IMG/VR virus record: IMGVR_UViG_3300038549_000009
Location: 259 to 64,258 of that record
DNA from: a virus
Lineage: Duplodnaviria; Caudoviricetes
DNA: 64,000 bases
Direction: 5' to 3' (one strand)
Numbering within the stretch: the first letter of the stretch is position 1; every line of letters starts with the position of its first letter. The position numbers were made by a program, and so were the translations under genes. Shown here piece after piece: positions 31 to 60,373 of the stretch. The notes under the pieces were generated by a model. The model had not been told where the DNA came from. It worked only from the letters and a program-made list of their open reading frames with translations, and ran no database searches.

Positions 31-1599
31 GTGAAGTATCTGCTCGTCCCCTCCGCGCGCGCGATCCTCCTGAACCCCGCCGACCCCGACGGGGTTCTCC
101 GTTACGTGACGACCGCGCGCCGCGTCGAGGTGGCCGGCCAGCCCTACATCGCCGTGCCCCACGGCATCCGGGAGACGACGCACCTCCGCGCGCTCGGCGC
201 GATGGTCCCCTCGCCCATCGGTTACTACTACAACTGGCCGAAGGTGGCGGGGCTCCACGAGCCGTGGATACACCAGCGCGAGACCGCCGGCTTCCTAACC
301 CTCTACCCGCGCTGCTACTGTTTAAACGACATGGGCACGGGCAAGACCTATTCGGCGCTGTGGGCCGCCGACTACCTGATGACGCTCGGCCTCGTGAACA
401 AGGTGTTCGTGTTCTCGCCGCTCTCGACGCTCGATCTCGTGTGGGGGAATTCCCTGTTCGACACGTTCGGGCATCGCCGCTTCGCGATCCTGCACGGGAC
501 CGCGCAGCACCGCCGGAAGATGTTCAATCAGGACCACCACTTCTACATCATCAATCACGACGGCTTCGACATCGTGATGAACGAATTCAGGGAGCGCGAA
601 GACCTGAGCCTCGTCATCATCGACGAGCTGGCGGCCTACCGCAACCACACCACCAGCCGGTTCAAAAAACTGCGCCGGCGCCTGCACCCCGACCAGATGG
701 TGTGGGGCATGACCGGTTCGCCCATGCCGAACGCGCCGAGCGATGTGTGGTCGCAGTGCAAGCTCGTCACCCCGCACACGGTCGACGAGACCTTCGGTGC
801 GTTCCGCCACAAGGTCGAGTCGCAGGAGAGCGCGCACGTCTGGTTGCCGCGCAAGGAAGCAGTCGACGTGGCCTACCGCGTCATGGCCCCAGCCATCCGC
901 TTCGCGCGCGAGGACTGCGTCGACCTGCCGGAGGTCGTCTACTCCGATCGGCACGCGGAGATGACGGCGGACCAGAAGCGCGTCTACAAGGAAGTGGCAA
1001 CCAAGCTCTACGCTGAGTGGCAGGGCGGCCAGATCACGGCGGCGAACGCCGGCGTCAAGCTGTTTAAACTCGTGCAGGTCGCGTGCGGCATCGTCTACGA
1101 TAGCGAGGGCCGGGAGCAGTTCATCGGCGCGCAGCCCCGGCTCGACGTGCTGATGGAAGTGATCGAGGAGGCGGCGGGCAAGGTCATCGTGTTCTGCCCG
1201 TTCCGCTCGGTCCTCAACATGGTGGCCGACTACCTGACCAAGCAGGGGCGCACCGTCGCCGTGGTCCACGGGGACGTGTCGCCGACCAAGCGGCGCGCGG
1301 TCTTCAATGACTTCCAGAAGCAGGAGGCCCCGGACACGCTCGTCGCCGATCCGGGAACTATGGCGCACGGGTTGAATCTAAGCAAGGCGAGCGTCGTCGC
1401 GTGGTTCGGGCCCGAGGTCTCGAACGAGACCTATACCCAAGCCAACGCGCGGCCGGTGCGCGAGGGGCAGGTCCACAAGACCAACATCGTGCACATACAG
1501 GGCTCCCCAGTGGAGCGGAAGATTTACAAGAAACTGCGAGAGCGCGGGTCGTTACAGGCCGCGCTCCTCGAACTCGTCGCGGAGGCGTTTAAACTGTGA
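31..1599 (+). CDS. SNF2-family (SF2) helicase
   Basis: Walker A-like DMGTGKT, DE box (IIDELA), MTGSP, C-terminal HGLNL and QANARPVREGQ motifs. Confidence 0.9.
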   Translation: MKYLLVPSARAILLNPADPDGVLRYVTTARRVEVAGQPYIAVPHGIRETTHLRALGAMVPSPIGYYYNWPKVAGLHEPWIHQRETAGFLTLYPRCYCLNDMGTGKTYSALWAADYLMTLGLVNKVFVFSPLSTLDLVWGNSLFDTFGHRRFAILHGTAQHRRKMFNQDHHFYIINHDGFDIVMNEFREREDLSLVIIDELAAYRNHTTSRFKKLRRRLHPDQMVWGMTGSPMPNAPSDVWSQCKLVTPHTVDETFGAFRHKVESQESAHVWLPRKEAVDVAYRVMAPAIRFAREDCVDLPEVVYSDRHAEMTADQKRVYKEVATKLYAEWQGGQITAANAGVKLFKLVQVACGIVYDSEGREQFIGAQPRLDVLMEVIEEAAGKVIVFCPFRSVLNMVADYLTKQGRTVAVVHGDVSPTKRRAVFNDFQKQEAPDTLVADPGTMAHGLNLSKASVVAWFGPEVSNETYTQANARPVREGQVHKTNIVHIQGSPVERKIYKKLRERGSLQAALLELVAEAFKL

Positions 1600-1618
1600 C
1601 GGGAACTCTGTCGCGGAA

Positions 1619-1647
1619 TTGACATCCAAGCATGGACCGCGTATCAT
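1619..1647 (+). promoter_or_regulatory. sigma70-type promoter
   Basis: TTGACA-N17-TATCAT, intergenic, upstream of the gene at 1670. Confidence 0.75.
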
Positions 1648-1669
1648 TAACTTCTCACGGGGGTGAATC

Positions 1670-2101
1670 ATGAGCGAAGCCGCTCAGCAGCAATCCGCAG
1701 GACAAACGAACGACGAGCTGATCGCGATCTACGTGCAGCTCCGCGACAAGAAAGACGCCGAAGCCAAAGCGCTCGACGCGCGCCTAGCTCCGGTCAAGGA
1801 AGCGATGGCCCGCATCGAACAGGTCATTCACCAGCGCCTCCTCGAGTCCGGCACGCAGGCATTCAAGACCGCGCAGGGCACGGCGTTCCTCAAGGAACAG
1901 ACCAGCGTCACCGTCAAGGACTGGGCCGGGCAGACGTTGCCGTTCATCATCCAGAACCAGCGTTGGGACTTGCTCGAATGCGGCGTCAACAAAACCGCCA
2001 CGCTCGCGCATATGGAAGCCAACAAGGGCGCAGTCCCGCCCGGCGTCAACTACAGCGCGCGGATGGTCGTGCAGATACGGCGCGGGAAGGACAAGGAATG
2101 A
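1670..2101 (+). CDS. conserved phage coiled-coil protein (possibly Gam-like)
   Basis: N-terminal coiled coil, then T..GT and PPGV motifs of a small protein usually found before SSB genes in such phages. Confidence 0.6.
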   Translation: MSEAAQQQSAGQTNDELIAIYVQLRDKKDAEAKALDARLAPVKEAMARIEQVIHQRLLESGTQAFKTAQGTAFLKEQTSVTVKDWAGQTLPFIIQNQRWDLLECGVNKTATLAHMEANKGAVPPGVNYSARMVVQIRRGKDKE

Positions 2102-2313: not shown

Positions 2314-2317
2314 ACCA

Positions 2318-3637: not shown

Positions 3638-3722
3638 GGTTTCGCGGGACCACGGGAGCTAGGAGCCTGTCGGTTTAAACGAGGGAATTCGCGCCCTGCC
3701 CGCTTTTTTCTTGGAGAAGAAC

Positions 3723-4013: not shown

Positions 4014-4034
4014 CCTCGAGGCTCAGGGGAGGTC

Positions 4035-10576: not shown

Positions 10577-10994
10577 TGACGATCTCCAAATTGAAAGGTT
10601 GACATCCCATTGTCGTTTCAAACCGCCGCACCGCCGGCGCCGACAGCAGTAGCGCCTTCTGTCCTTCGATCCATCCCAGCCGCTCGCCCAGTGCGATGCA
10701 GCCCTGCAACTGTGACCGGTAGCCCTTGGCGCTATCGCCCATCAGGTTCGCCGAGTGCGCCCGGATGCCCACTCTCGGGTCCGTGCCAAGCAGCAGATAC
10801 ATCATTCGTTTAAACGTCCTGCTCCACGTCCACACCACCGGGTAGGTCCCGAGCGGTATGCACGAGAGCCCCGTCGCGTTGTCCCGCCACGGCTGCTCGC
10901 CGGTGAACAGGACCAAGCCGGTCGGCACGATGATCCGGCCGAACGTGCCCTGATCCCCGGTCTCGTGCCGCTCGAGCCTGACGAGCGGCAGCAC
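10569..10994 (-). CDS. DUF5675-type putative endolysin
   Basis: GTFG, E.PW.DN...SCIP.G.Y, R.GI..H.AN, GCI.LG motifs. Confidence 0.75.
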   Translation of the reverse strand: MLPLVRLERHETGDQGTFGRIIVPTGLVLFTGEQPWRDNATGLSCIPLGTYPVVWTWSRTFKRMMYLLLGTDPRVGIRAHSANLMGDSAKGYRSQLQGCIALGERLGWIEGQKALLLSAPAVRRFETTMGCQPFNLEIVNA

Positions 10995-15046: not shown

Positions 15047-18000
15047 CTAGGTTGGCCCCAGTAGCTCGTCTCGGGCGCCCGAGCGCAGCGCGCGCGGGAG
15101 CAGGAGCAGCGTGCGCTGGTTGAGCGGGAGCCCGGCGAGCGCGATGGAGCGGCGGATGCTGCGGGCGTCGAGCATGAGCGGCGTGTCGGGGTATTGCTCG
15201 TTCCAGCCCTGCGCGGCGGCGAATGCGTCCTTCACGTCCTGATCCTTTCCGTCGCGGATGCCGCGCACGATGTTGTCGTATATCTGCTGCCGGACCTGAT
15301 TGTAGAACGCCACGTCCTGCTTCACGATCCGGTCGTGCGCGTATATCTCCGCCATCGCGGCGCTCGAGAACCCGAGCGACTGCCAGAACGACTCCATGTG
15401 GCCCACGTCAGTGATCTTCCGGCCGGCCGGATCGGTGGCGACTCCGGTCGTCCAGTAGTTGTAACCCTTGACCATGTTGCGCGCCGCAACCGGCAGCGCC
15501 TCGTTGGCCGCGCGGTTGTATTCGCCCTGCGTGAGGCTCCGCCCGCCCTTCAGCGCACCCTCGACCATCGCGCCCACCGGGCCTAGCACGTCAGACAGCA
15601 CGCGATCATAGGTCGCATCCGCCGCGCCAAGCCGGGTGCCGGGGATGATGTCGCCGAGGCCCACGCGGGAGGAGAACTGCATCCCTGTTAGGGTGTTGAC
15701 CGCGCCAGTCATGAGGAGCCCGGACAGGTCTGATCCCACAACAGACTCGCTCGCATCCTTCAGCGCGTTGCGCATCGCGCGGCGCGTGTTGAACGGGCTG
15801 CCAAAGAGCCGCTGCGAGATCACGTCGATGATGTCGAGTATATTCGACATGAACGGCAGGCCCTCGGTGCCGGCGGCCAGCCACAGGCTCAGCAGCGCGA
15901 AGCTCGCCGCACGCGGGCTCTGCTTGTAGAGGCCCGTAATCATCTCGACCATGTAAATCGGGAAGCTCTTGAACACGAACAGGAGCGAGCCCAAATCAGA
16001 GTGGGCGAGACCGGGGCGGTTCGCCTCGTCGTAGCGGAACTGGGTTTTGTAAACCACGTCCTTCGCAAACTCATAGACCGTTGGCGTCGGGAGCTTGCCT
16101 GCCTTCGCGAGTTCTTGCCCCGTCTTATAGGCCGCGATGAACGTGGCGAGCCGGTTGAGGTGCTCGCCGGCACGGAAGGGCGCCATCCAGACCTTGATCG
16201 CGTTCTGCACGCGCTTGGACCGCGAGTAGATGCTGCCGCGTGCCATGCCCATGATCTGAAATAGCTCCGTGTCGAGAATCGTCCCGTCGCGAGCGGCCAT
16301 GATAAGCGCGTCGCGCAGCCCCGGCACGGAGTCGACATCAGGGATCGAGTTACCCTGCTTATCCTCCAGCTTCGGTAGCGAGGTGAGAGTATTGTAATTC
16401 GATGCCGCAGTTTTCAACCCGCCGAACGTGCGCGCGTAGGCTTGTCCGATCCCTGCATACTGTGACAGGTAGGGCACCGTGCCGAGCGGTAGCTGCGAGA
16501 GCTGCACGCCCATCGCGGCGAACGATCCGCCGAGGAAGTGGAGCGAGGCGAGCGAGCGGAGCTTCGAGGACCAGTTCGACTTGTCGTGCGCGGGGTTCAT
16601 GACATAGCTCACGCGCTGCTCCGCGAGGCTGCGGTAGTGCCCGGCCAGCGGTCCATCGCCGTTCCACTCGTTGCGCGCCCGATCGGTCTCGAACGTCGGG
16701 CGCCCGTTGGCGTCCTGCCCCACGCGAACCTTGTAGCCCTGTAGCGCGTCTGCCAGCGCGGCACTGAATTCGGTGTGCGCCACCTTGTTCGAGATGCCGA
16801 CCGCGAACTCCGCCAGAATGCGCTCGCCGTCGGTGCTGAAGCCCGGCACGTTTAAACGACGGAAGATGCGGTTCCGGCGGGTCGAGTCGGCCTCGATGGT
16901 GAACTTGGCCAGCCGCTCTTTCTCGGTCTGCGTGAGCTTGATCCCGAGCCGATTTGCCGTGTCAAGGAAGTCGAGATAGCTGATCCCGCCGTCGTATTCC
17001 ACCTTGTCCCGCGTGTTCCACTCGAAGGTGATCTCGGGGAACTTCGGTCCGACCGCCTTCTGCAAATGGTCGAGTGCGTCCTGCGCCTGCTTCTGCGTCT
17101 GGAACTGCGTGTAGAACACTGTCACCGGGCCCTGCTCGGTCTTGATGTAGCCGTGCGTCACGAAGTCCCCGTAACGCCGCTCGGGGATGTATCCCGTGCG
17201 CACCAGCTCCTCGATCTGCGCGCGCCGGGTCGCCTCCCACGTTTTGTAGGCGGCGGAGTCGGCGCCGAGCGCCTGCCGGTAGACGGTCTGATCGGCGGTG
17301 AATTCCTCGCGCAGCATCTTGTTGACCATCTCACCGGCCTGATCGAACATGCGCCGCTGGCGCTCAGTCAGCAGCGCGCGGAGCCGGTTATACTCCGGCG
17401 TCCCGACGGCGTGGTTCCCGACGGTGCGCTGCATGAGCGCGTTGCTGACGGCATCGCGGTCTGCTGTGGTCGTCGTCAGCGGCAGCCACTCGCTCAAGTT
17501 CTTCTCGACCGAGTCCGCGATCAGGCGCTTTTTGCGATCGCTGTGCGCGAACAACACGTTCGACACGTTCGCCACGCCCTTGCTGCGCTCCGAAATCTTG
17601 AGGAGCGACATCAGGTTCTTCTCCACCCAGCGCATCGTCGATCCGGTGGACGAATCGCCGGCGTGCTTGAATATCTGATCCCACGTCTGCTTCGGGGCGC
17701 CTGCTTCATCCACGGCGGCGCTCACGCGATGGAGCATCTGCGTGTGCTGCGCGCTGCCCTTCGTGTATTGGTCGTCCATGTTCTCGAGCGCGGCCTTCGA
17801 GTAATACAGCTCGAAGCCATCGGAGTCCAGCATCGTCATTCCGTCCTGCGGCAGCGGCAACGTGGCATCGAGCGCGGCGCGCGAGAACATCGTGCCTTGG
17901 TTCTGTGTCACGCGCAGGTCGTCGATCGCGTTCTTGAAGTTGTAACCCGCCTTGCGGAAATTCTCGGGGCCGACCGGGGCCTTCAGCGCGATGTCGATCC

Positions 18001-45152: not shown

Positions 45153-46602
45153 GCACCGCACATAAGCACGTCCCGGACGTGCGCATCGTGAACCACGGGA
45201 GCGTCGTGCTGCTGCATTTAAACACGCCGCCAGCGCGCGACTGGGCGCTCAACAATATCGACCCGGACGCGCCCCGCTTCGGCCGGGCCGTCGTCGTCGA
45301 GCCGCGCTACGTGGCGGCCATCGCCGACGGCATGAGCGCCGACGGGCTGGAGGTGCGCTAATGAGAACGCCGACACCATTCGACGGGCCGGGAGTCCTCC
45401 GGCCACTGGACCCACTGGCGCGCGCTATCGAGGCCGCCAGTGTCGAGGACGTAGCGCTCCTGATTGTCGCACTGGCGCGCGAGGCCCGCGCGCAAGCGGA
45501 CTATCCGGCGCGATTGGCCGAGCTTGAGGCGCGGGCCAGCGCCGCGCGGGGGGTAGCATGAAGATCATCGAGCAAATCGGCGACTACTCCGTGCGCGACG
45601 AACGCGACCCGGCACAGAGCACGCCGTTCTATTCTTACGGGGCGGTTACGTTGTGGGGCCCGGACGTGAACGGGCGCATCTGCCGGATGGGCAACTACCG
45701 CAACGACACGGGCCGCGCGCTCCAAGTCCTGCGGATGCTGGCCGGGGCACCATCATGAGGCCCGAGGACAAACTGCTGCGGGCCCTGTTCCATCCGGACC
45801 GGGACGCGCCGAGCGCGCGCTGCCCGGACTGCGGGATACCGACTGTGCCGGACCACGAGGGGTTGACCTACGAGGAACGGCTTTGTGAATCGTGCTACTT
45901 GCGCTGGAGCGAGGAGGACCATGACCGCTAGACTATCGAAGCATGAGCAGCACCGGCTGGCGCGCGGGGTATCGACGCCGTGCGCCGCATGGCATGGGAC
46001 GTTCGGAGGCCGCTGTTTAAATTGCGGCTACACGCCGGGCCGCATCGTCGAGGATGTCATCAAGGCGCGCCAAGCTGAGCGCGCGGAGGGAATAAAGTGA
46101 AACCGAGACCGACCACATGGGAAGCCCTGCGCCGCCTCGAGGCGCGCTGGATATCCGATAGCACGGCGCGCCGTATGGCGTTCCGGCTGCTGCGCGAGTC
46201 AACGCGTGACGCGGGCCGGGAATATGCCGAGGCCGTCTATCGGCTGGAGGTGCGCATTGTCGAGCGCGAGACGGCACGCAAGCGCGCGCTGCTGCGCCTG
46301 AAAATGAAGCTCACCCAACAGGCCGAGGTCGAGCGCGAGGCCATCCTGCGCCTCGAGGCGCGGTTCAGGCGCGAGACCGAGCGCGTCTGGACTGCCATCT
46401 TGCGCCTGAAGCGCGATTATCTACAGCGCACGGGCCGGGAGGCGTGGTAATGAATTACCACGAGACGCGAGACGCTGCGCTCCCTGAGCAGCAACGGCTT
46501 AACGCCCTAACGGGCAAGCCGCACGTCATCCGGCGCGTCGAGCACGGCGAGCGGGCCGGCTGGTATTACGTCGAGCCGTTTAAATCCGCTCCGAAAAATG
46601 TC

Positions 46603-46983: not shown

Positions 46984-47110
46984 GCCCGTCCGCCTTCTGA
47001 TTCTGGCCGGGCTCCTGCTATTCCTCACAGGGGCCCGGCTGTTTGTGTTTGCACTGAGGGAATCGCGCGAGCGCCCGGAAGACTCGCGCATAGACTGGGA
47101 GATTTAAACG

Positions 47111-47606: not shown

Positions 47607-47633
47607 GCGGCCGGTAAGGCCCGGCCGCTTTTT
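47607..47633 (+). terminator. intrinsic terminator-like hairpin
   Basis: GCGGCCGG-TAAGGC-CCGGCCGC-TTTTT. Confidence 0.6.
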
Positions 47634-47664
47634 GAGAACGCCCTAACACCCTAACTGGAGGCAC

Positions 47665-47988: not shown

Positions 47989-50900
47989 GAGCGTTTAAAT
48001 GAGCTACACGACCACCATGCGCAAGGACCGGGACGGTTGGCGCGCCGAGACGCGCATCACTCTCCCGGACGTGCAAGCGCACGCACTAACGCACCGGCCC
48101 GAGGAGAAGGGCGAGACGGTGCTCAGCCTCACGACATCCAAGCGGACGCGCGGCCTGTCCACGTTCGCGAGCGTAGCGTTCCACGCTGAGAACGGCTTCA
48201 CGACGCACGCGATGGGGATGGGGACCGGACTGGGCGACTACGGGCGCACGATTCTGCAATCCGGGGACCGCTGCACCGAGAAGGCCATCGCCCGCCTGCA
48301 CGCCGAGGCGCTGAACCTCGTGCCGACGGTGCTCGAGGCAGTGCGCGCGCACTACGCCGCGCAGAAAAAGGAACGCGCCCATGTTTGAGACCATGAGCAG
48401 CACCGTCAAGCAAGACACGACGCTGAGATTCACGAGCAAGCTGGAGCGTGACCGGAAGGCGCGCGAGCTTCGGAAGCAGGGCTACACCGTGGAATGCAAG
48501 ACGTGGGATTTTACGGACCTCGCGCGTGCCATTAGCTACGAGCTAACGGCCACGCGCACGATCAGGCGCGTTTAAATCCATCGTGGCAACCATCCACCTG
48601 AGCGACATCATCCGACGGGCCGGGGCGCTGGCGTGCGACGCGCGCACGAACGCCGACGGCTCGCACCATCTCCGGCTGCGCTTCGCTGGCGGCCGGACCG
48701 AGGACTCGACCACGGCGCCGGACGTGCGCCTCATTCTTCCACATCAGGAGGTAACATCGTGACGACTCTGGAAAAGGAAATGCTGCTAGACAAGATCGCC
48801 AGCCTACTAGGCGGCCGGATTGTCAAGGACCGAACGGACTGCGGCGGCGTCTTCGCCGACGTGGAGCTTGCCGACGGGGTGCGCTTTCACATGCACGCCG
48901 ACGGCTACGGTAACGAGGAGCGTATCACGTTCAGCGGGGACTGGCCGAGCTACACCAAGCCCGACGGGACCACGACCATCGTCATCCCGCGCGACGTGTG
49001 GATCGACAACCGGCAACTGGAATCCCCGAGCATCAGCGTGAGCTACACGCGCCCGGTCGAGCAGATCGTGAAGGACGTGCAGCGCCGGTTCCTGCCGGGC
49101 TACGCGCCCATCTGGCGCGCGGTCAAGCAGCGCGCCGAGGACCAGACGGCTTTTTACCGTAGGCAGCGCGAGACGGCCGAGCGCGTGGCGAGTCGCACTG
49201 GAGGCAAGGCGCGCGCCGGGTTCACTGAGGTGGACTATGGCTATGAGTTCGGCACGGCCAAGCTGCGCGGGGGCTACGGCGCGGAGCCGTTCGAGTTCGA
49301 GGTCACGCTCCGGGAAGTGAGCGAGGCCGACCTGCTGGACATCATCGACTTGCTGCGCGCGCGGTGGAGGAAACGTGTCAAAGTCGCGGCATAACGACAA
49401 GGATGTCATCATCCCGCCGGTCCTGCTGAAGCTCGACCGGCTGGACACCGAGGCCCTGCGCGAGCTACTGCACATGGTGCCGGGAGTGAATCACTGGGCG
49501 CTCGACCGGGCTACCGACGCAGCCATGCGCGAGGCGTTTAAATCCTACTGGCGGACGGGGAAGCTGACCGAGGCCAACATCTTCAACTTCAGGGGGGGCA
49601 AGTGAGCATACTGGACGAGATAAAATTCGCCGACGCGGGCACGGTGAGCCGCGCGCAACTGGAGCAGATCGCCGTCTGGATCGACAACATCGAGAAGCTG
49701 GACGCCGAGAACGGCTACACCGAGGCCAAAGAACTTTGGGCCCTGCTGTTCGACATCCGCAAAGTCGCGAGGGGGCAAGCATGATCGGCATATTTCACCG
49801 GTTCTTCCGCTCGCTCGTCGAGATCGAGCCGAGCGTCTCGCGCCGCCGGATTATGGGCTTCTCCGCCGGCCAACTTCGCGCGCTGCTGAGCGTCGCTCGC
49901 GTCTATCCGCCCGGACTATGGAGCGCAAGCGCCGACGCGCTGCGCAGTGTAGTGCTCCGCGCCTACGAGCAGGGGCAAATCTCCGACGAGCAAGTGGAGG
50001 ACATCAAGTGAAAGAGTCCGAGTTCGAGGAGTTCACGCGGCGGGTCTACGTCCGGGGAACGCGGGTCCTCGCCGCCATCTTCGCCGTCTTTTTACTGTGG
50101 GTCCTAACCGGGCCCCGATAACCGAGGAGCATACGCATGGCAAAGAGACTCATTCTTACAGTGCCTACGAAATTGACGCTTACGGAACTGGACATTCGCG
50201 AGGTATCCATCATCCTCGCCGCTCTGCGGCACTGGCAGAATAGCCCGCGCCGCTCGAGCGACGTGGAGGCTATCGCCGACAACGGCGGCGATGTCTGCCG
50301 GCTGGACGACGGGGAGATCGACGCGCTCTGCGAGAAGATTAACACCCGCGACATCTACGTCGTGACGGAGGAATCGTGCGGGTGAGCATCATCAACATCA
50401 TCATCCTGCTGGTGATCGGCACGCTGCTGGTCATGCCGGGGTGCATTTAAACGGAGGGTTTCATGCAGGCTATCTACCTGATTATTTTTTGCGCCGTGCT
50501 GGCGATGACCGGGCTCGCCATCGGAGACCGGCTCGACCAGCAAGAACGCGTAGCACTGACGGCGCCGACCGAGCGCCAACAAGCGCTGATCTGCTGGCAT
50601 GAATTCCAGTCCGGACGGCGGTCCACCACGGCAGACTGCCCGGCGCTATGAGCACCGAATACAAATACAAAAAGCTGAACGGCGACTGGCTGGAATGCGA
50701 CTCTTGCTCGTCCCTCGCTCCGCTCGCGACATTCGAGCAGCGGGATCATCGCACCGGCCAGAACGAAACGCGCCATTTGTGCGAGGTGTGCGCGAGCAGC
50801 TACATCGCCAATGCGGTGCAGTATCCGAGCCAGTATGAGAACGTGGCCCTCTATCAGGCCCTCGGGCGCTGCACGAACATAATCCTCGATGCCGTCACGA

Positions 50901-52703
50901 AGCGGAGGCCGAAATGAGTAATGCCGCACCCACGCCCGAGCCCCGCCGGGGCACATGGGCCGACTTTGTCGAGCACGCTGGCGGCGGCGCAACCTACATC
51001 ATCTACGTGGACGGCGTCGAGCACACGCGCGGCTACCGGACTAGCTACGCCGACGCGCGAAAGGATGCGCGCGAGGACTTGCAGATCGCCCGGATGTTCT
51101 GCGGCCGGGCCGGGAAACGGGAGGACTGATGGCCATCTTCACGCGTGTCGAATTCCTCGGCGCTGTGGCTGGCGTGCTTTACGAGATTCATCGCGCGCAG
51201 TCCAGCTCCGGGGAATTATACGGTTACCGGCTCGTGCGACGATATCTCAAGTGGCCGGATCGCGAGGCCCAAGTTACCGGACTACACAAGAGCGCTCGCG
51301 ACGCGCGCCGCACTGGCGTTGCTATCATCGAGGAATTGCGAGCCGCCATCAATGAAGGACGTGTGAACCGTGAACGCTACCCCTCCTAAACCCCCGGTGA
51401 CCGTGCGCCGGCAGGACTGCACGTTCATCGGCGGGGCCCGCGAGCGTGCAACTTTGTGCGCCGCGCTGAGTCTATACCAGACTCACCTCGAAGCCGGCAT
51501 CCTGCCGCAAGACGCGGCCGACATCGCCGCCTCGTGCGACGGCCGGCCTCCGCTCGACAGTGACGAGATCGCAGTGCTACTACAGGAGATATCGGAATGA
51601 ATGACAAGCTCGCCAAGGCGATGCGCAAGATGTCGAAGTATCGGCCGGGCCCGCAACCGAAGCCCGAGTTCCCCGGCGTCCATCATCTGCTGGAGGTCCC
51701 GCTCTACGCTACACACACCCGGACTATCCGCGAGATGGGCCCGAGGGGAAAGATCATCGCGCGCAAGGTTGAGAAGATACTCTACGGAGCCGACGGGAAA
51801 ACACCGCTCTCGCCGTTGTGGCACCAAGTCAAGGACAAGGACGGCAACGAGCGCGTGGTCCACAAGACCGAGGTCGTGCCGATCCTGAAACCCATCCGGC
51901 TGCTGCCGGGCTCGCCGAAGGCGAACTACCGCCGGTTGAAGCGCGCATTTAAACAACACGAGGCCGCCCGTGGCATATCCGCCTAAGCTGCACAAAGCCG
52001 TGGCGCAGAGCATGGCCGAACAAGCGTTGGCTGAGCTAGATGCTGCGCTCGACCGCGTCGGGCTCGCGCGCGGCGCGGGGCCGCACCCGCATTCGATGAC
52101 GGTCTACAAAACGCGCAACTGCACGGGTAACCTCGGCGTGACAACCGACATCGCTCTTGGCAGGCTGATTCAAACTCTGAAACGGGAGGCCCGTCGTGCC
52201 GCTAACTCCTGAGCAGCAAGCCGCGCGTCTGCGGAAGATCGTCGAGGTGGGCATGGCATACCTCCACGCCGGCGACGTGCACAACAAGCAGTTTGGGCTG
52301 GAGGTCATGCTGACACTCCTGACCGACAGCCGCGACGTGCCGACGTTTCGCCGGCGGTTTCGCGGGCCGGACAATCACTGGGAGGATGGGAGGTCACTGT
52401 GAAACTGAGACTGAGCAAGATACTGCGGGAAGCCGCGCGGCTGGTGGAAGGTGACGAGCACGCCCACTCATGCACCGCCGTCAGCAGTGTCGTCTACCGA
52501 GCCTTGGGGGGGCGGGCTAAGAGGGTCGATTGGATTGGCCGCTGTGTATTTGGCCCGGAACGCATTGCCTACCAAGAGCTGTTGCTGGGACCTGACGGCC
52601 GGTTTCACATACACGACTTCGGCTTCTTGTATAACTCCGACGCGCATAACCTCCGGGTCCTCGCGCTCTGCATGGCGGCGACACTCGCCGAGGACGCGGG
52701 ACT

Positions 52704-53672: not shown

Positions 53673-53868
53673 TGAGCCAGATGCCCGAGGAACCGAGACG
53701 CTACACCTTCGGTGGGGTCATGCGCGGTGTCTCTGACATGGTGCTGGCGGCGGATTACGACCGCCTCCGCGCCCACGCACAGCGCCTCCAAGATCGCGTC
53801 GAGGGGCTGGAGGCATTTAAACGCAGCGTCGACGAGGCGCTGAACTCGGGCGACGGGAGCTATCGGCC

Positions 53869-55269: not shown

Positions 55270-57245
55270 CACGGCTCAGTAACATCACCACAGTCGCCGG
55301 GCTGGACTTCGAGACTTACTGGGATCAGGACTACACCCTAGACAAGCTCAGCACCGCAGACTACATCAGAGACCCCCGATTCGAGACAATCGGGGTTTCT
55401 GTTGTCCACGCTGGGCGGCGCTTCTGGCTGGAGGACCACCAGTTCCGGGAGTTCGCGCGCCGCGTGGACTGGTCTCGCGTCGGCGTCGCTGCGCATCACG
55501 CGCATTTCGACGGCGGCATCCTCGCGTTCCACTATGGCATAATCCCCGGCCTCTACTTCGACACGCTCTCGATGTCGCGCGCGGTCTATGGGCCCTACGA
55601 GAAGCACGACCTCGACGCGCTCGCTCGCCGCGCCGGCGTCGGGCGCAAGCTCGACATACCGCCGCTCGTCAAGGGGCTGCGCCGCGCGGACATGCCGCAA
55701 GCGCTGTGGGAGGAGTATGGTGTCTACTCGCTGAACGACGCCGAGGTCATGATGGAAGCGCTCAAGGTGATGTGCGCCGGCTTCCCGCGCTCGGAGCTGG
55801 CCCTGATCGACGCGACCATCCGCATGTTCACGCAGCCGGGGTTCGTGCTCGACGACGCGCTGCTGAAGCAGGTCGAGATCGACGAGTTGGAGCGCCGGCG
55901 CGACTTGCTGGCGCAAGCTGGCGTGACCGAGAAGGACCTCGGCAGCGCCCCTAAATTCGTGGCGCTCCTCGAAGCGATGGGAGTCGAGGTCGAGATGAAG
56001 CGCGGCAAGAACGGGCCCATCCCTGCCGTCGCGAAGTCCGACCCGTTCATGCAGGGGCTCCTCGACGGCGACGACGAGGATTTGCGCGTGCTGGCGGAGG
56101 CCCGCCTCGCGGTCAAGTCGACGCTCAACGTGACGCGGGCCCGCCGCCTCCTAACCCTCTCACGGGGGGGCGAGCCCGTGCCGGTCTACATCGCCTACTA
56201 CCGGGCGCACACCGGGCGCTGGGGCGGCTCGGACGGGGTGAACTGGCAGAACCCGGAGCGCACCAGCAAGAAAGACGCGAGGAAGGGGCGCATCCGCAAG
56301 GCGATCATGGCCCCGCCCGGCTACAAGATCGTGGTGCGCGACTCCGCTCAGGGCGAAGCGCGCACGCTCGCATGGTTCGCGCGGCAGGAGGACCTTGTCA
56401 CCGCGTTCGCGCAGGGGCGGGATGTCTACTCGGAGCGCGCGAGCATGTATTACGGGCGCACCATCAACCGCAAGCTCAACCCGGAGGACGAGATACCGGG
56501 GCTGATCGGGAAGAACACGACGCTCGGGGGCGGCTACGGCATGGGGTTCGTGAAGTTCGCGATGGAGCTGCTGCGCGGGATGTTCGGGGGCCCACGCATC
56601 CAGTTCACCGAGGACGACATCGTGCGTTTAAATGTCGACGCGCAGGCGTTCCTCAACAACAAGTGGAAGATGAAGCGGGTGTCCGAAGCGCCGACCCGGC
56701 TCGACCGCAAGGCGATGCTGGTGCACTGTATCGTGTGCGACCACATCATCACCCAGTATCGCGCGGCCAACGACAAGATCGTCGGGCTGTGGGAATACCT
56801 CGACGAGATCGTCATCCCCTCGATGGCGGACGGGGCAGAATTTGACATCGGGCCGGGAACTCCGGGCTCGGTTCGGGTGTCCAAGAACTCGATCATCCTG
56901 CCCAACGGGCTCGCGCTGCGCTACGACAACCTGCGCCGGTCCGGGGCGCAGTGGATATACGACACGCCGCGCGGCATCCGGCACCTCTACGGGGGAAAGA
57001 CGACCGAGAACCTGATCCAAGCGCTCCACCGCATCATCGTGGCCGATCAGATGCTCCAGATCGCCGAGCGCTGGGACGTGAAGCTGATGTCGCATGACGA
57101 GGTGGCAGCACTGGTGCGGGCAGAACTGGCCGAGCGCGCGCTGGTGGAGATGGGCCAGATCATGAAGGCGTCCCCGTGGTGGGGACCGGGCCTGCCGCTC
57201 GCATCGGACGGCGGGATAGCAGTCAGATATGGAGACGCAAAATGA
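55266..57245 (+). CDS. family-A DNA polymerase with 3'-5' exonuclease
   Basis: DFET ExoI, HTGRW.G...NWQN, D.AQ.E.R motif A, K...LG.GYG motif B, HDE motif C. Confidence 0.92.
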   Translation: MTRLSNITTVAGLDFETYWDQDYTLDKLSTADYIRDPRFETIGVSVVHAGRRFWLEDHQFREFARRVDWSRVGVAAHHAHFDGGILAFHYGIIPGLYFDTLSMSRAVYGPYEKHDLDALARRAGVGRKLDIPPLVKGLRRADMPQALWEEYGVYSLNDAEVMMEALKVMCAGFPRSELALIDATIRMFTQPGFVLDDALLKQVEIDELERRRDLLAQAGVTEKDLGSAPKFVALLEAMGVEVEMKRGKNGPIPAVAKSDPFMQGLLDGDDEDLRVLAEARLAVKSTLNVTRARRLLTLSRGGEPVPVYIAYYRAHTGRWGGSDGVNWQNPERTSKKDARKGRIRKAIMAPPGYKIVVRDSAQGEARTLAWFARQEDLVTAFAQGRDVYSERASMYYGRTINRKLNPEDEIPGLIGKNTTLGGGYGMGFVKFAMELLRGMFGGPRIQFTEDDIVRLNVDAQAFLNNKWKMKRVSEAPTRLDRKAMLVHCIVCDHIITQYRAANDKIVGLWEYLDEIVIPSMADGAEFDIGPGTPGSVRVSKNSIILPNGLALRYDNLRRSGAQWIYDTPRGIRHLYGGKTTENLIQALHRIIVADQMLQIAERWDVKLMSHDEVAALVRAELAERALVEMGQIMKASPWWGPGLPLASDGGIAVRYGDAK

Positions 57246-58490: not shown

Positions 58491-58492
58491 TC

Positions 58493-59188
58493 ATGGATCA
58501 CGACGACATCTCACGCCGCGCGTTCAACGCGGAGGGCGACCTCAACCGGACCGGCGGGCGCGGGCTCGTGGTGGACCCCGGCCGCAAAGGCGAGTGGATG
58601 CAGACCTACACCGGCCGGCGGTTCTACCCGTGCGACCCCCGGCCCGAGGACGTGGACATCATCGACATCGCGCTCGCGCTCGGGAACATGAGCCGCTACC
58701 TCGGGCACTGCCGCTTCTACAGCGTCGCCGAACACTCCGTCATGGTGTCGCATGTGGTGCCATCGGGCTTCGAGCTGGAGGGCCTGCTCCACGACGCCGA
58801 GGAGGCATACGTGCATGACTTCATCCGCCCGTGGAAGCGCGCGCTCGCGCCCGACAACGACTACTTCAAGCTCGCCTCTCACATCAATCTCGTGGTGCGC
58901 CGGGCATTCGGGCTGCCCGATCTCGAGTCCCGCCAAGTGAAGGAAGCTGACGTGGCCGTGCTCGGCTGCGAGAAGGCGGTGCTGCACCCACGCTCCGACC
59001 CGTGGCATCTGCCCTATCCCGATCCGGGGCTGAAGATACGCGGGCTCTTGCCGCCGGCGTCGTCCAAGTATTTCCTGATTCGCTACGCTGAACTCACGGG
59101 CGAAGACGTTGCCCGCCTGATCGCTCAGGTCGACGACATCATCCGCACCGACGACATCAACCTCTACAAGCACTGGGGGATCAAATGA
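58493..59188 (+). CDS. HD-domain 5'-deoxynucleotidase (YfbR/YfdR-like)
   Basis: T.TG..F, DIA.AL, R..GH, YSVAEHS, LLHDA.EAY..D. Confidence 0.88.
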   Translation: MDHDDISRRAFNAEGDLNRTGGRGLVVDPGRKGEWMQTYTGRRFYPCDPRPEDVDIIDIALALGNMSRYLGHCRFYSVAEHSVMVSHVVPSGFELEGLLHDAEEAYVHDFIRPWKRALAPDNDYFKLASHINLVVRRAFGLPDLESRQVKEADVAVLGCEKAVLHPRSDPWHLPYPDPGLKIRGLLPPASSKYFLIRYAELTGEDVARLIAQVDDIIRTDDINLYKHWGIK

Positions 59189-59832
59189 GCGTAATCATCG
59201 GCCTGACCGGCTACGCCGGCTGCGGCAAGGACACCATCGCCGACATCCTGCGCGACGAGTTCGGATTCACGAAGGCGTCGTTCGCTGGTCCGCTGAAGCG
59301 CGAAGTGGCAGAAGCGTTCGGGCTGACACCGGGCGACGTGACCTTCCTCGAGGATCGCGAAACCAAGGAACGTCCGCTGCTGCGGATGGCGCTGGAGGAA
59401 TGCGCAGACCCCGGCTTTATCGCCTGCCTGCTTGAGGGTGCCGGGCTCTCGGGCTCGCAGCTCCTCACCGAGCTAACGGCGCGCCGATCCTACCGCTGGG
59501 TCTTGCAGCGTTGGGGCACGGAGTATCGCCGCGCGCAGTCGCCGACCTACTGGATAGACCGGGCGGCGGAAGTCATCGCCGGTGTCGAGCGTGTCGTATT
59601 CACGGACACGCGTTTTCCCAACGAGGCCGAGTTCATACGCCGTGCCGGCGGCACGCTCTGGCACATTCACCGGCCGGAAGTGAGCGTGGTCGAGGAGCAC
59701 GTCTCGAACCAGCAGCTCGCGGAAGGGGATGGAGACACGATACTCACCAACAACGGAACCATTGACAGTCTCACTCGCGCCGTCATTCGGCACATGGAGG
59801 ATAAATATGCTCTTGATCGCACTGGAAAGTAA
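59185..59832 (+). CDS. deoxynucleoside monophosphate kinase
   Basis: GLTGYAGCGKDT, FA.PLK, R..LQ.WGTE, D.RFPNE, H.S, N.GT. Confidence 0.9.
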   Translation: MSVIIGLTGYAGCGKDTIADILRDEFGFTKASFAGPLKREVAEAFGLTPGDVTFLEDRETKERPLLRMALEECADPGFIACLLEGAGLSGSQLLTELTARRSYRWVLQRWGTEYRRAQSPTYWIDRAAEVIAGVERVVFTDTRFPNEAEFIRRAGGTLWHIHRPEVSVVEEHVSNQQLAEGDGDTILTNNGTIDSLTRAVIRHMEDKYALDRTGK

Positions 59833-60373
59833 CACTCAGTTGGTGGCCGAGCACGCCGCCAAATATCTGCGCGAGACCTACGGGTTCGTCACGCTCACTC
59901 GCGCGGACCTGATGGTGTCGGGCTCAGGCACGGTTGAAGGGCTCAAAGCGTTCCTCAAGGCGTTCACGCAGTCGCGCCACCGCAAGGTGGCGACACGCGA
60001 GGAAGCGCGCCAGATCGGCCGGCAGCTCCACTACAGGCCAAACTCGAAGGGCCAGCCGACGGCCGTGCCCCTCGGGTTCGAGTATTACGAGGACCACGCC
60101 GGCATCGTGCTGGTTAACGTCGCCTTAGACGCGGTGACGCGCACGGTCCGGGAGAACGAGGGTAGCCAGTGGGTCATCCTCGACGTGCCCGCTGCGGACG
60201 ATTGGCCTCTGACTTCGCAAGGGCTGTTGACGGGGCTACGCACCGGTGATAAGCTGGTCCTCCACGCCTCGACGCTGGAGCGTTTAAATACCGCGCTGTC
60301 GCTGGCACTGGGGGGAGAGTTCATCGTGAACACCATCGACGACACGCCGGAGGCTGCGAATGAAGTGTCATAA
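59807..60373 (+). CDS. degenerate dNMP-kinase-like paralog
   Basis: aligns by eye with the upstream kinase but lacks the P-loop; GGAGG RBS. Confidence 0.55.
   Translation: MLLIALESNTQLVAEHAAKYLRETYGFVTLTRADLMVSGSGTVEGLKAFLKAFTQSRHRKVATREEARQIGRQLHYRPNSKGQPTAVPLGFEYYEDHAGIVLVNVALDAVTRTVRENEGSQWVILDVPAADDWPLTSQGLLTGLRTGDKLVLHASTLERLNTALSLALGGEFIVNTIDDTPEAANEVS

What the first reader, a model, noticed from the sequence alone, without database searches (positions are those of the whole stretch)
320..60289. Genome-wide AT-rich octamer RTTTAAAY written into genes against codon bias
Seen: at least 24 TTTAAA hexamers, every one flanked as R-TTTAAA-Y and none ATTTAAAT. Octamer starts: 320, 1062, 1587, 3673, 10808, 14611, 16850, 25859, 40932, 41717, 42829, 44002, 45216, 46015, 46578, 47102, 47993, 48570, 49536, 50445, 51947, 53815, 56626, 60282. 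A rough base-frequency estimate at this GC gives only 1-2 TTTAAA per 64 kb. Most lie in CDS, in two frames (TTT-AAA Phe-Lys; TTA-AAY Leu-Asn) and in genes on both strands, using codons this phage otherwise largely avoids. Inference: a DNA-level site under selection, such as a binding site for a phage or host protein, a methylation/self mark, or a translocation landmark. Candidate readers are the HTH protein (3723; one site lies 50 bp upstream) and domains of the ejected 2601-aa protein.
Basis: partly seen in the sequence, partly recalled or inferred. Interest (0 to 1): 0.85.

Follow-up and report, generated by a model that had tools for sequence, protein, structure and literature searches.

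The report
Dispersed RTTTAAAY octamer in a phage
A GC-rich phage genome carries 24 exact copies of one AT-rich eight-letter word, far more than chance or codon usage allows and mostly written into its early genes, which suggests that some still unidentified factor reads the phage DNA at these marks.

Summary
All 24 TTTAAA lie at the stated places and all are R-TTTAAA-Y. About 2 are expected by dinucleotide shuffling. Inside genes there are 18, against about 3 after synonymous-codon shuffling.

TTTAAA is by far the most over-represented hexamer (z 35). One-mismatch variants are not enriched, and nothing is conserved beyond about 9 bp.

New points:
- The eight sites at 320-25866 are all GTTTAAAC. 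The sixteen at 40932-60289 are all ATTTAAAC or its complement, 9 on one strand and 7 on the other. This points to reading of double-stranded DNA.
- Density falls from the early block (0.8 per kb) to the late block (0.12 per kb). No two early-block sites lie closer than 524 bp.
- The genome is purged of palindromes: GTAC is absent and 33 of 64 hexamer palindromes have no copy. The early and replication half also avoids GATC, CGATCG and GGCGCC.
- No relative, and none of 401 bacterial genomes searched, shows the excess.
- The contig ends overlap, so the circular map looks complete. No methyltransferase, integrase or clear repressor was found.

Best guess (0.33): landing sites for a sequence-specific DNA-binding protein acting mainly on early DNA. 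No reader was identified, so the function is inferred.

The parts
320..327 (.). GTTTAAAC in the SNF2-type helicase gene 31-1599(+), read TGT-TTA-AAC (Cys-Leu-Asn of helicase motif I)
   Evidence: Leu-Asn is also present in G002, G005 and Rollin, which lack the DNA word, so here the site needed only synonymous rare codons.
1062..1069 (.). GTTTAAAC in the helicase gene, read TTT-AAA (Phe-Lys)
   Evidence: The 14 listed homologues have S, T, N or M where this phage has Phe, so the site cost an amino-acid change.
1587..1594 (.). GTTTAAAC, 6 nt before the end of the helicase gene
3673..3680 (.). GTTTAAAC, intergenic, 43 nt upstream of ATG 3723 (weak HTH_3 protein)
10808..10815 (.). GTTTAAAC in late gene 10569-10994(-), TTT-AAA
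14611..14618 (.). GTTTAAAC in late gene 14573-14737(-), 23 nt upstream of the next start
   Evidence: G001 has Trp-Arg in place of Phe-Lys here.
16850..16857 (.). GTTTAAAC in the 2601-aa gene 15047-22852(-), TTA-AAC
   Evidence: This is the only one of the 2 sites inside the DNA alignment to G001 (16850 and 25859) that G001 keeps, within about 50 identical bases.
25859..25866 (.). GTTTAAAC in late gene 25275-26105(-), TTT-AAA
   Evidence: Absent in G001, which has Gln-Lys here.
40932..40939 (.). ATTTAAAC at the end of the 1-kb non-coding leader, ahead of the first early gene
41717..41724 (.). ATTTAAAC in the SprT-like early gene, TTT-AAA
   Evidence: In 16 aligned family members Phe is invariant and Lys nearly so, so the site uses a pre-existing dipeptide.
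42829..42836 (.). ATTTAAAC, 9 nt into gene 42821-43195(+)
44002..44009 (.). ATTTAAAC in gene 43736-44164(+), TTT-AAA
   Evidence: Phe-Lys is kept in 2 of 2 homologues.
45216..45223 (.). ATTTAAAC in gene 45149-45361(+), TTA-AAC
46015..46022 (.). GTTTAAAT in the weakly supported ORF 45921-46100(+), TTA-AAT
46578..46585 (.). GTTTAAAT in ORF 46450-46620(+), 18 nt upstream of the -35 of the best sigma-70-like promoter (46603-46631)
47102..47109 (.). ATTTAAAC between a Shine-Dalgarno sequence and ATG 47111
47993..48000 (.). GTTTAAAT overlapping ATG 47999
48570..48577 (.). GTTTAAAT containing the TAA stop of gene 48381-48575
49536..49543 (.). GTTTAAAT in gene 49375-49605(+), 63 nt before its end
50445..50452 (.). 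ATTTAAAC, intergenic, 11 nt upstream of ATG 50463
51947..51954 (.). ATTTAAAC in gene 51597-51986(+), 33 nt before its end
   Evidence: Phe-Lys is kept in 2 of 4 near homologues (74-84% identity); the other 2 have Trp-Lys.
53815..53822 (.). ATTTAAAC in gene 53672-53872(+), 51 nt before its end
56626..56633 (.). GTTTAAAT in the family-A DNA polymerase gene 55266-57245(+), TTA-AAT, in a stretch that is variable or gapped in homologues
60282..60289 (.). GTTTAAAT in gene 59807-60373(+), 71 nt upstream of the start of the T5 A1-like gene

Best explanation
RTTTAAAY (more exactly RTTTAAAC on at least one strand, with a weak preference for a following G) is a dispersed recognition word on double-stranded phage DNA. 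It is probably read by a sequence-specific, probably symmetric, DNA-binding protein, most likely one of the roughly 60 unannotated early gene products.

Single sites about 1 kb apart through the early operon, fewer in the replication genes, and only four in the distal part of the late operon would let such a protein act at many places on early DNA. It could block or attenuate transcription there, or coat or mark that DNA, while leaving the head genes free. This resembles the 'stoperators' of L5-type mycobacteriophages.

The flank split has a simple reading. GC pressure makes GTTTAAAC the default form. In the early block the full palindrome is counter-selected, as CGATCG, GATC and GGCGCC are there. 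Exactly one flank is then switched to A/T, which also explains why ATTTAAAT never occurs.

Shown: the excess, the strictness, reading that is independent of strand, the regional pattern, and the regional avoidance of palindromes.

Inferred: that a protein binds the word, who it is, what binding does, and that the early block is the first DNA to enter the cell.
For: Excess and strictness:
- 24 sites against about 2 expected. In genes, 18 against 2.99 after codon shuffling, max 10 of 400.
- The nine classes of one-mismatch variants of the core have 0-10 copies against 1.8-11.2 expected.
- No conserved position outside -1 to +7. No shared longer element around the sites.

DNA level rather than RNA level:
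- In the one-directional early block the 8-mer lies 9 times on the + strand and 7 times on the - strand.
- Its two flanks are perfectly anti-correlated: 0 G..C and 0 A..T among 16, Fisher P 8.7e-5.
- A following G occurs in 12 of 16, P 0.007.

Sites are placed where they are tolerated or written by force:
- 6 touch non-coding sequence or gene boundaries, and 8 of 18 coding sites lie in the last 90 nt of a gene.
- Synonymous rare codons at 320; an amino-acid change at 1062.
- Phe-Lys coding is bimodal.

Distribution fits graded action along the expression order:
- 16 sites in 20.4 kb of the early block, 4 in 11.4 kb of the replication block, 4 in 32.2 kb of the late block, and none in the head genes at 25.9-40 kb.
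- Mean distance from the start of the early operon is 15.9 kb against 32.1 kb expected, z -4.3.
- The smallest spacing in the early block is 524 bp, P 0.0008.

Specificity for the phage: many of the 401 Pseudomonadota genomes hold only 1-30 sites in 3-7 Mb, against 24 in 64 kb here. A reader of this word would therefore see almost only phage DNA.

Precedents:
- 20-30 repressor sites spread over L5-type genomes, most not at promoters, with motifs that change between close relatives (PMC6550527, passages).
- Two distant relatives carry their own repeated words: an 18-20-bp palindrome, 7 exact copies plus 1 variant, in G005, and a word of about 14 nt, 8-11 copies, in phage Rollin.

Regional avoidance (supports the flank explanation):
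- CGATCG 3 copies against 48, and GATC 103 against 286, in the 29-kb early and replication half against the 35-kb late half. These are the most region-skewed k-mers of the genome.
- GGCGCC 6 of 61 in the early block, P 5e-5.
- Leading-region avoidance is documented for T5 (10.1101/866236, passages) and for Murciavirus (PMC12455610, abstract).
Against: - No reader is identified. Of 106 ORFs scanned against Pfam, and a subset against PHROGs, the only DNA-binding hint is a sub-threshold HTH_3 hit, and the early block is all ORFans.
- Eight to nine base pairs is short for a dimeric operator.
- Stoperators are 13 bp, asymmetric and co-oriented with transcription. These sites are not.
- The phage looks virulent and complete: the ends overlap and there is no integrase or clear repressor. 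A global repressor is therefore not expected a priori.
- Positions are not conserved. In the DNA alignment to G001, 1 of the 2 sites it covers (16850 and 25859) is kept. At 14611, just outside that alignment, G001's protein has Trp-Arg, so the word cannot be there. At 51947, 2 of 4 near homologues cannot carry the word.
- Conservation in the early block could not be tested at all.
- The strictness would fit an enzyme at least as well as a binding protein.
- The entry order of the DNA, and hence 'leading region', is inferred and not shown.
Confidence: 0.33

Rival explanations
1. The word is the target of an enzyme with restriction-enzyme-like specificity: a methyltransferase or other modifying enzyme, a nickase or a site-specific endonuclease, of the host or the phage. 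The sites would then be epigenetic marks, nicks as in T5-type virion DNA, or programmed breaks that start recombination or replication.
For: - Exact 6-bp palindromic core with R/Y flanks and no enriched one-mismatch variants, which is how Type II specificities look.
- The genome is otherwise dominated by selection from restriction systems: GTAC 0 against about 122-139 expected, and 33 of 64 hexamer palindromes with 0 copies. Short palindromes clearly matter to this phage.
- It encodes nucleases: PD-(D/E)XK at 62444-63142, a weak 'endonuclease' PHROG hit at 63556-63927, and a T5 A1-like protein.
- T5-type phages carry specific nicks (PMC10644984, passages).
Against: - No methyltransferase and no recognisable restriction-type gene in 106 ORFs.
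- Restriction targets are expected to be avoided, not enriched more than tenfold.
- T5 nicks lie in one strand only, whereas the asymmetric form here lies on both strands, 9 to 7.
- RTTTAAAY was not found as a named specificity in the paper library (9 papers hold one of the five strings searched, none about restriction or methylation).
- No physical data could be obtained.
Confidence: 0.2
2. The word is a phage-private 'self' signal for a nuclease. Like Chi for RecBCD, it would attenuate or redirect a processive nuclease, either the phage's own host-DNA-degrading A1-type machinery or a host exonuclease entering at the first-injected end. Phage DNA would then survive while host DNA, which almost lacks the word, is destroyed.
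For: - The phage encodes a close family member of T5 A1 (phrog_1745, E 9e-144) beside a Dmp-like dNMP phosphatase and a dNMP kinase.
- A1 is reported as necessary and sufficient for host DNA degradation, and how unmodified T5 DNA escapes it is stated to be unknown (10.64898/2026.04.02.716235, abstract and section 19).
- The word is hundreds of times denser here than in many bacterial genomes.
- Density is highest at the presumed leading end.
- An 8-mer written into genes in any frame is also what Chi looks like (recalled).
Against: - Among the 115 fetched loci of at least 10 kb, which include most of the 80 carrying an A1-like gene, none shows a comparable hexamer excess. The top z has a median of 6 and a maximum of 15.9, the latter from only 4 copies. 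A general link between A1 and a motif is therefore not seen.
- No A2-like partner was found.
- Chi is strand-oriented; this word is not.
- Nothing shows that this phage degrades host DNA.
Confidence: 0.12
3. The word acts in RNA. R-UUUAAA-Y would be an AU-rich single-stranded entry site for RNase E or another endoribonuclease, or for a translational regulator. It would make early messages short-lived and lower expression of distal late genes.
For: - Enrichment follows expression class: early, then middle, then late, with none in the head genes.
- Several sites sit next to ribosome-binding sites or start codons (47102, 47993, 48570, 50445).
- 13 of 24 lie within 80 nt upstream of a start.
- A purine two bases before a cut followed by U's resembles the RNase E consensus (recalled).
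Against: - The asymmetric 8-9-mer lies on both strands in a block transcribed one way, with perfectly anti-correlated flanks. A sense-strand RNA signal does not predict this.
- Other AU-rich hexamers are not enriched, although RNase E is not that specific.
- No Rfam family other than one tRNA.
Confidence: 0.08
4. The word is a structural or host-factor site: a flexible TpA hinge or a nucleation point for a host nucleoid protein of the H-NS, MvaT or Lsr2 kind or IHF. It would help condensation, ejection or silencing of the early DNA.
For: - Isolated 6-bp AT islands in 64% GC DNA.
- Even spacing and a gradient from one end.
- Such proteins prefer AT tracts with TpA steps (recalled).
Against: - These proteins are not known to demand one exact hexamer with R/Y flanks. 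All other AT-only hexamers stay at 0-10 copies.
- One site per kb is too sparse to change bending energy (my estimate).
Confidence: 0.07
5. No function: a by-product of a biased mutation or repair process or of the palindrome purge, or hitch-hiking.
For: - Poor positional conservation.
- Restricted to one lineage.
- Biased repair can raise the frequency of a short palindrome in bacteria (recalled: very-short-patch repair; HIP1 of cyanobacteria).
Against: - The excess survives codon shuffling.
- It includes an amino-acid change in a conserved helicase.
- Sites are over-dispersed, with minimum spacing P 0.0008, and regionally sorted by flank, 1 in 735,471 by order alone. A blind process would not do either.
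- No sampled bacterial genome with at least 20 sites shows more than 265 against 141 for its reversed control.
Confidence: 0.05

Closest known systems
Stoperators of Cluster A (L5-type) mycobacteriophages
   Same: 20-30 copies of one short word spread over the whole phage genome, most not at promoters, read by one phage protein. The word differs between close relatives (PMC6550527, passages).
   Different: Stoperators are 13 bp, asymmetric and co-oriented with transcription. They sit mainly in short intergenic gaps and belong to temperate phages with a known repressor. Here the word is 8-9 bp with a palindromic core and lies on either strand. 18 of 24 copies are inside genes. The phage shows no integrase or clear repressor, and no reader is known.
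Restriction-site avoidance in the first-injected region (T5 first-step-transfer DNA; Murciavirus leading region)
   Same: Part of the genome avoids words that the rest tolerates. Here these are CGATCG, GATC, GGCGCC and the full GTTTAAAC. Compare 10.1101/866236 (passages) and PMC12455610 (abstract).
   Different: Those cases concern loss of sites only. Here the same region gains sixteen copies of a related word. Entry order is not known for this phage.
Chi (crossover hotspot instigator) octamers
   Same: A strict 8-mer written into genes in any frame and far above chance, serving as a 'self' signal for a nuclease (recalled).
   Different: Chi is G-rich, strand-oriented and enriched in the host chromosome. 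This word is AT-rich and palindromic, and in the 401 genomes searched it did not exceed about twice its reversed control in any genome with 20 or more sites.
HIP1, the highly iterated palindrome of cyanobacteria
   Same: An 8-bp palindrome at about 1 per kb, largely inside genes, of unknown function (recalled).
   Different: HIP1 is a property of host genomes that their phages share. Here the word is private to one phage lineage.
Recognition words of DraI (TTTAAA), PmeI (GTTTAAAC) and SwaI (ATTTAAAT) type restriction enzymes
   Same: Same core and the same kind of flank definition (enzyme names and words recalled, not from a call).
   Different: Targets of restriction are depleted in phages, whereas this one is enriched more than tenfold. 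No cognate enzyme or methylase gene was found in the phage.
T4 late promoters (TATAAATA)
   Same: A strict AT-rich 8-mer used many times by a phage (recalled).
   Different: Those promoters are oriented and lie upstream of genes. Here orientation is mixed and 18 of 24 copies are inside genes. This phage has ordinary sigma-70-like promoters with a CGTATAAT -10 element, 6 copies.

Membership tests
Stoperator-type repressor sites (L5 type) | About 20-30 copies dispersed over the genome, mostly not at promoters | tested here: met
   24 copies, 18 inside genes. One lies 18 nt upstream of a promoter-like -35 element.
Stoperator-type repressor sites (L5 type) | Asymmetric 13-bp word co-oriented with transcription | tested here: not met
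   8-9 informative positions with a palindromic core. In the one-directional early block the orientations split 9 to 7.
Stoperator-type repressor sites (L5 type) | A cognate phage repressor gene | tested here: inconclusive
   Only a sub-threshold HTH_3 hit at 3723-4013 (17.6 against 23 bits). No integrase or repressor family in 106 ORFs. About 60 early ORFans remain uncharacterised.
Stoperator-type repressor sites (L5 type) | The protein binds the word and stops transcription | not testable with these tools
   Needs EMSA, ChIP and RNA-seq.
Type II restriction or methylation target | Exact short palindromic word | tested here: met
   Exact TTTAAA with R/Y flanks in 24 of 24. One-mismatch variants are at background.
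Type II restriction or methylation target | A cognate enzyme gene in the phage, or depletion of the word | tested here: not met
   No methyltransferase or restriction family found. The word is enriched, not depleted.
Type II restriction or methylation target | Modified or cut DNA at the sites | not testable with these tools
   Only contigs of two runs exist, and read laying did not complete.
Chi-like or HIP-like host word | Over-represented in the host chromosome | tested here: inconclusive
   In 401 sampled Pseudomonadota genomes the largest excess over the reversed control, among genomes with at least 20 sites, was 265 against 141. Many hold fewer than 30 sites. The true host is unknown and may not be in the sample. 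The tally includes one unpublished genome, G390 (1 against 11); the claim does not rest on it.
Chi-like or HIP-like host word | Strand orientation bias (Chi) | tested here: not met
   9 to 7.
Phage promoter (-10-only type or phage RNA polymerase type) | Fixed orientation and position upstream of genes; further conserved positions | tested here: not met
   Mixed orientation, 18 of 24 in genes, and no conserved position beyond +7.
-1 frameshift slippery heptamer (U UUA AAY) | The heptamer in the X XXY YYZ frame, with a use for the -1 frame | tested here: not met
   Only 6 of 18 coding sites are in that frame, 12 are TTT-AAA, and 6 are not inside a gene.
T5-type virion nicks | Sites on one strand only; physical nicks | tested here: inconclusive
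   The asymmetric form lies on both strands, which does not fit. Physical nicks could not be examined.

The most novel reading that the evidence does not exclude
The octamer is a private 'self' mark of a virulent phage. It is almost absent from host chromosomes, is written about once per kb into the first DNA to enter the cell, and is read by a co-injected or very early phage factor. That factor would spare or shield marked DNA while an A1-type nuclease and host nucleases destroy unmarked DNA, acting as a viral counterpart of Chi. In the leading region the mark is kept one base away from the full 8-bp palindrome, so that it cannot be cut by an 8-bp cutter before protection is in place. This would bear directly on the question, stated as open for T5, of how unmodified phage DNA escapes the phage's own host-DNA degradation.
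Probability: 0.12. Interest if true: 0.9.

Novelty: new variant of a known kind. Interest (0 to 1): 0.72.

Why it matters
Dispersed short words that a phage writes into its own genes are rare and have been informative: stoperators for immunity, Chi for self-recognition by nucleases.

This case is unusually clean. It is one exact word, more than ten times over expectation, in a genome that has otherwise expelled half of all hexamer palindromes. The flank code changes between the early third and the rest of the genome.

If a reader is found, it would define a new way for a virulent phage to address its own DNA. That could be global control of early genes, or discrimination of phage from host DNA in a phage that carries a T5 A1-like nuclease.

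Independently of the function, the regional avoidance of CGATCG, GATC, GGCGCC and GTTTAAAC adds a computational example to the recent idea that the first-injected region is the part of a phage genome that restriction systems shape most.

Tried and rejected
Promoter idea. I looked for a second conserved element within 60 nt either side, in three orientations, and for shared longer segments around the sites. None was found. The sigma-70 scan gave 3 promoter-like sites against 3.1 expected. The real-looking promoters use CGTATAAT. Rejected.

Frameshift idea. Rejected on frames.

Repeat or mobile-element idea. The sites are not part of a longer repeat.

Archaeal TATA-box idea. Considered because TTTAAA is TATA-like in GC-rich archaea (recalled). 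Rejected because the genes are bacterial-phage-like: a SleB-like cell-wall hydrolase, a T5 A1-like protein, Shine-Dalgarno sites and sigma-70-like promoters.

Artefact or designed genome. Considered because so many cloning sites are missing. Rejected because G001, from another record at 79-87% DNA identity, shares the same purge, and distant relatives purge other sets.

Conservation.
- A close relative exists only for the late region (G001).
- For the early block, scans with the polymerase (viral and metagenome contigs), the A1-like protein, a 211-aa early protein and the first early gene gave no close relative. Megablast against named phages gave no match.
- Near homologues of early proteins do exist in the protein collection. 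One, at 82% identity, sits on a 31.5-kb contig.
- Protein alignments gave only indirect information.

Host.
- The genome-contig scan found two distant relatives in metagenome-assembled genomes labelled Gallionella and Sulfuricaulis, with 45% and 43% terminase identity. They have no A1-like gene and no excess of the word. This is not enough to name a host.

Readers.
- PDB sequence searches of the 2601-aa and HTH proteins gave nothing.
- The Atlas search of the 439-aa protein gave only unnamed viral clusters, with a Pam3 gp34 hint on 10% of the members of one cluster.
- No A2-like protein was found.
- Structure prediction, complex prediction and the search of protein representatives were not used, because no result from them could link a protein to the word.

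Sequencing runs. Two DNA holders were listed: X1, probably the source, and X2, with a 0.35 share of words. No RNA holder was listed.

Literature.
- A search with 'TTTAAA', 'bacteriophage' and 'overrepresented' (at least 2 of 3 terms) listed 25 of 2,016 papers. None is on such a motif, judged from the listing only.
- A search for the degenerate strings RTTTAAAY, GTTTAAAY, RTTTAAAC, TTTAAAY and RTTTAAA found 9 papers, none relevant, again judged from the listing.
- Supplements were not opened and may hold methylome motif tables that I could not see.

Full report
WHAT IS THERE.

The window is nearly all of a 64,258-bp IMG/VR virus record with 64% G+C. Its first 171 bases repeat its last 171 at 98% identity. 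The map is therefore circular and probably complete, even though the record is labelled 'linear, 88% complete'.

My own gene calls give 106 ORFs covering 95% of the sequence. The layout, is as follows.
- A 1-kb non-coding stretch at 39980-40967.
- A rightward block of about 60 small unannotated early genes (40.9-55 kb).
- Replication and nucleotide genes:
  - a family-A polymerase,
  - a DEDD exonuclease,
  - a T5 Dmp-like phosphatase and a dNMP kinase,
  - a T5 A1-like protein (phrog_1745, E 9e-144),
  - a PD-(D/E)XK nuclease,
  - and, across the junction, an SNF2 helicase, a weak HTH protein and a DUF927 primase-helicase.
- A leftward late block (40 to 7.9 kb): terminase, portal, capsid, adaptor proteins like those of podophages GP4 and SU10, and a 2601-aa protein.

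The nearest named phage is Pseudomonas phage Rollin, at 38.5% portal identity. HMO-2011-type phages follow at about 28%.

All 24 have a purine before and a pyrimidine after. The reversed control word has no copy.
- Shuffling synonymous codons within genes leaves 2.99 copies in coding positions (max 10 in 400), against 18 observed. It leaves 1.71 with R..Y flanks (max 6), against 18.
- TTTAAA is the most over-represented hexamer of the genome, z 34.9. No other AT-only hexamer is raised on its own.
- One-mismatch variants are at background.
- Nothing is conserved around the word except a G after the C flank, in 12 of 16 (P 0.007). The sites are not parts of a longer repeat.
- The 37 Phe-Lys dipeptides are coded TTCAAG 23 times, TTTAAA 12 times and never TTTAAG.
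- At 320 the helicase's conserved Leu-Asn is recoded with rare codons. At 1062 a Phe stands where the 14 listed homologues have S, T, N or M.

So the word is selected as nucleic acid, sometimes at a cost to the protein.

NEW STRUCTURE IN THE PATTERN.

(a) Two flank classes sorted by place. The first eight sites (320-25866) are all GTTTAAAC. The sixteen in 40932-60289 are all ATTTAAAC or GTTTAAAT, which are the same 8-mer on opposite strands, 9 and 7 times. By order alone this sorting has odds of 1 in 735,471. Within the early block the two flanks are perfectly anti-correlated (Fisher 8.7e-5). In five early sites the A flank is a third codon position, where G would be the preferred base. A single description is RTTTAAAC on at least one strand. 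Because the early genes all run one way, a signal that sits on either strand argues for reading of duplex DNA rather than of RNA or of the transcription bubble.

(b) Gradient and spacing. There are 16 sites in 20.4 kb of the early block, 4 in 11.4 kb of the replication block, and 4 in 32.2 kb of the late block. None lies in the head genes between 25.9 and 40 kb. The mean distance from the start of the early operon is 15.9 kb against 32.1 kb expected (z -4.3). No two early-block sites are closer than 524 bp (P 0.0008). The first 13 have a spacing CV of 0.32 (P 0.0002, a post-hoc subset).

(c) Placement. Six sites touch non-coding DNA or gene boundaries. Eight of the 18 coding sites lie in the last 90 nt of a gene, which holds 16% of coding DNA overall and 27% in the early block. 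This is a tendency towards tolerant places.

THE GENOMIC BACKGROUND IS AN ARMS RACE OVER PALINDROMES.

- GTAC is absent, against about 122-139 expected. 33 of the 64 hexamer palindromes have no copy, for example CCGCGG against about 82 expected, GACGTC 35, CCCGGG 32 and GCATGC 32. The others sit near expectation. TTTAAA is the only one raised.
- G001, a 26.9-kb relative of the late region at 79-87% DNA identity, shares the same purge. More distant relatives and phage Rollin purge other sets.
- The most region-skewed k-mers of the whole genome are GATC (103 against 286), CGATC and CGATCG (3 against 48). The comparison is between the early and replication half (39929 through the junction to 4908) and the late half.
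- GGCGCC is also low in the early block, 6 of 61 (P 5e-5).
- Stricter avoidance in the DNA that enters first is documented for the first-step-transfer region of T5 (10.1101/866236, passages) and for Murciavirus (PMC12455610, abstract).
- By analogy I infer that the early block enters first. I also infer that the full palindrome GTTTAAAC is one more word it must avoid. This would explain why exactly one flank is switched there and why ATTTAAAT never occurs. The entry order itself is not shown.

RELATIVES AND HOSTS.

- The excess is private to this lineage.
  - G002, G003 and G004 (56.7-65.0 kb) each have 0 copies of TTTAAA. G005 has 3 in 59.0 kb.
  - Rollin has 1.
  - No other fetched locus stands out.
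  - Over 115 loci of at least 10 kb, the top hexamer z has a median of 6 and a maximum of 15.9, the latter from only 4 copies.
- G001 has three TTTAAA. Only one is canonical, and it is the conserved counterpart of 16850. The site at 25859 is not there.
- Protein-level checks in near homologues:
  - The Phe-Lys under 51947 is kept in 2 of 4.
  - The one under 44002 is kept in 2 of 2.
  - The one under 41717 is fixed in the protein family (Phe invariant, Lys nearly so).
  - So sites are built opportunistically on existing dipeptides and also turn over.
- Conservation in the early block could not be tested at the DNA level (see Tried and rejected).
- In 401 sampled Pseudomonadota genomes none with 20 or more sites exceeded about 1.9 times its reversed control. 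Many genomes of 3-7 Mb hold fewer than 30 sites (one of the 401, G390, is unpublished and nothing rests on it). It is an inference that these low-count genomes are the GC-rich ones. The word is thus a few hundred times denser in the phage than in such genomes, and it is not an obvious host word. The host remains unknown.

WHAT IT MOST LIKELY IS.

The data call for a reader of duplex DNA with an exact 8-9-bp specificity. Its action is wanted about every kilobase on early DNA, less on middle genes, and hardly at all on late genes.

I rank first (0.33) a phage DNA-binding protein with dispersed single sites, as with stoperators (PMC6550527, passages). It would act as a roadblock or attenuator, or as a coat or mark on early DNA. 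In support, two distant relatives carry their own repeated words in the corresponding regions.

Against this reading:
- No reader can be named. The HTH assignment is below threshold and the early block is all ORFans.
- The word is short.
- Orientation is mixed.
- The phage looks virulent.

Rivals, in order:
- an enzyme target: modification, nick or programmed break (0.20);
- a private Chi-like self signal tied to the A1-type nuclease (0.12), attractive because the escape of T5 DNA from A1 is stated to be unexplained (10.64898/2026.04.02.716235, abstract and section 19), but not supported by other A1-carrying phages;
- an RNA-level signal (0.08);
- a structural or host nucleoid-protein site (0.07);
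- no function (0.05).

The remainder is 'something else'.

VERDICT.

Its candidate readers are not supported. The mechanism remains inferred.

I file it as a new variant of dispersed genome-wide recognition sites. Membership in the stoperator family fails on word length, symmetry and orientation. A bolder reading, a viral self mark, is not excluded.

Noticed in passing
whole window: Extreme purge of palindromes. GTAC has 0 copies against about 122-139 expected. 33 of 64 hexamer palindromes have 0 copies, 24 of them with at least 5 expected. The rest are near expectation. G001 shares the same set. G002-G005 and phage Rollin purge other sets.
   Followed up: yes
window 39929-64000 plus 1-4908, against 4909-39928: Region-specific avoidance: CGATCG 3 against 48, GATC 103 against 286, and GGCGCC 6 of 61 in 40000-60400. 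These are the most region-skewed k-mers of the genome. The boundary near 4.9 kb falls inside the DUF927 primase-helicase gene. This could reflect order of DNA entry or a mosaic origin.
   Followed up: partly
G000 bases 1-171 and window 63830-64000: The contig's two ends repeat each other (171 nt, 98% identical, 3 mismatches). The map is therefore circular and probably complete, although it is labelled linear and 88% complete.
   Followed up: yes
window 58493-61910: A cluster of T5 pre-early-like genes: a Dmp-like dNMP phosphatase (phrog_318, E 2.7e-51), a dNMP kinase (PF21448) and an A1-like 'DNA transfer protein' (phrog_1745, E 9e-144), in a podovirus unrelated to T5. 359 stretches encoding relatives of the A1-like protein were found in viral contigs.
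   Followed up: partly
window 43190, 46625 (+); 51221, 33910, 29185, 9982 (-): Six copies of CGTATAAT. Several have a -35-like hexamer 17 nt upstream and are probably host-type promoters. The one at 51221 points against the early genes.
   Followed up: partly
window 39980-40967: A 1-kb non-coding region between the divergent late and early blocks. It holds many short direct and inverted repeats, promoter-like TTGACA/TTGTCA boxes and six CCTAAC/GTTAGG words. It is a likely control, origin or packaging region.
   Followed up: partly
G005 (loci L152-L154), for example near 1272, 3083, 47326, 50444, 53711, 56687 and 58481: A distant relative carries 7 exact copies, plus 1 variant, of a perfect 18-20-bp palindrome in intergenic early-region positions. 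It looks like an operator. Phage Rollin has a different word of about 14 nt in 8-11 copies.
   Followed up: partly
window 7740-7814 (-): A tRNA-Met gene at the junction of the convergent blocks. A second ARAGORN call (tRNA-Cys, anticodon ACA, 58387-58469) lies inside a coding region and was not confirmed by Rfam.
   Followed up: no
window, 13 places: TTGTAGA occurs 13 times. Its two overlapping hexamers have 37 and 35 copies against about 8 expected. In every case it lies on the strand opposite to the local genes, so it is probably a coding or dipeptide effect rather than a signal.
   Followed up: no
window 47607-47628 (+): The one convincing intrinsic terminator of the early block: an 8-bp GC stem followed by TTTTT, after gene 47111-47587.
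   Followed up: no
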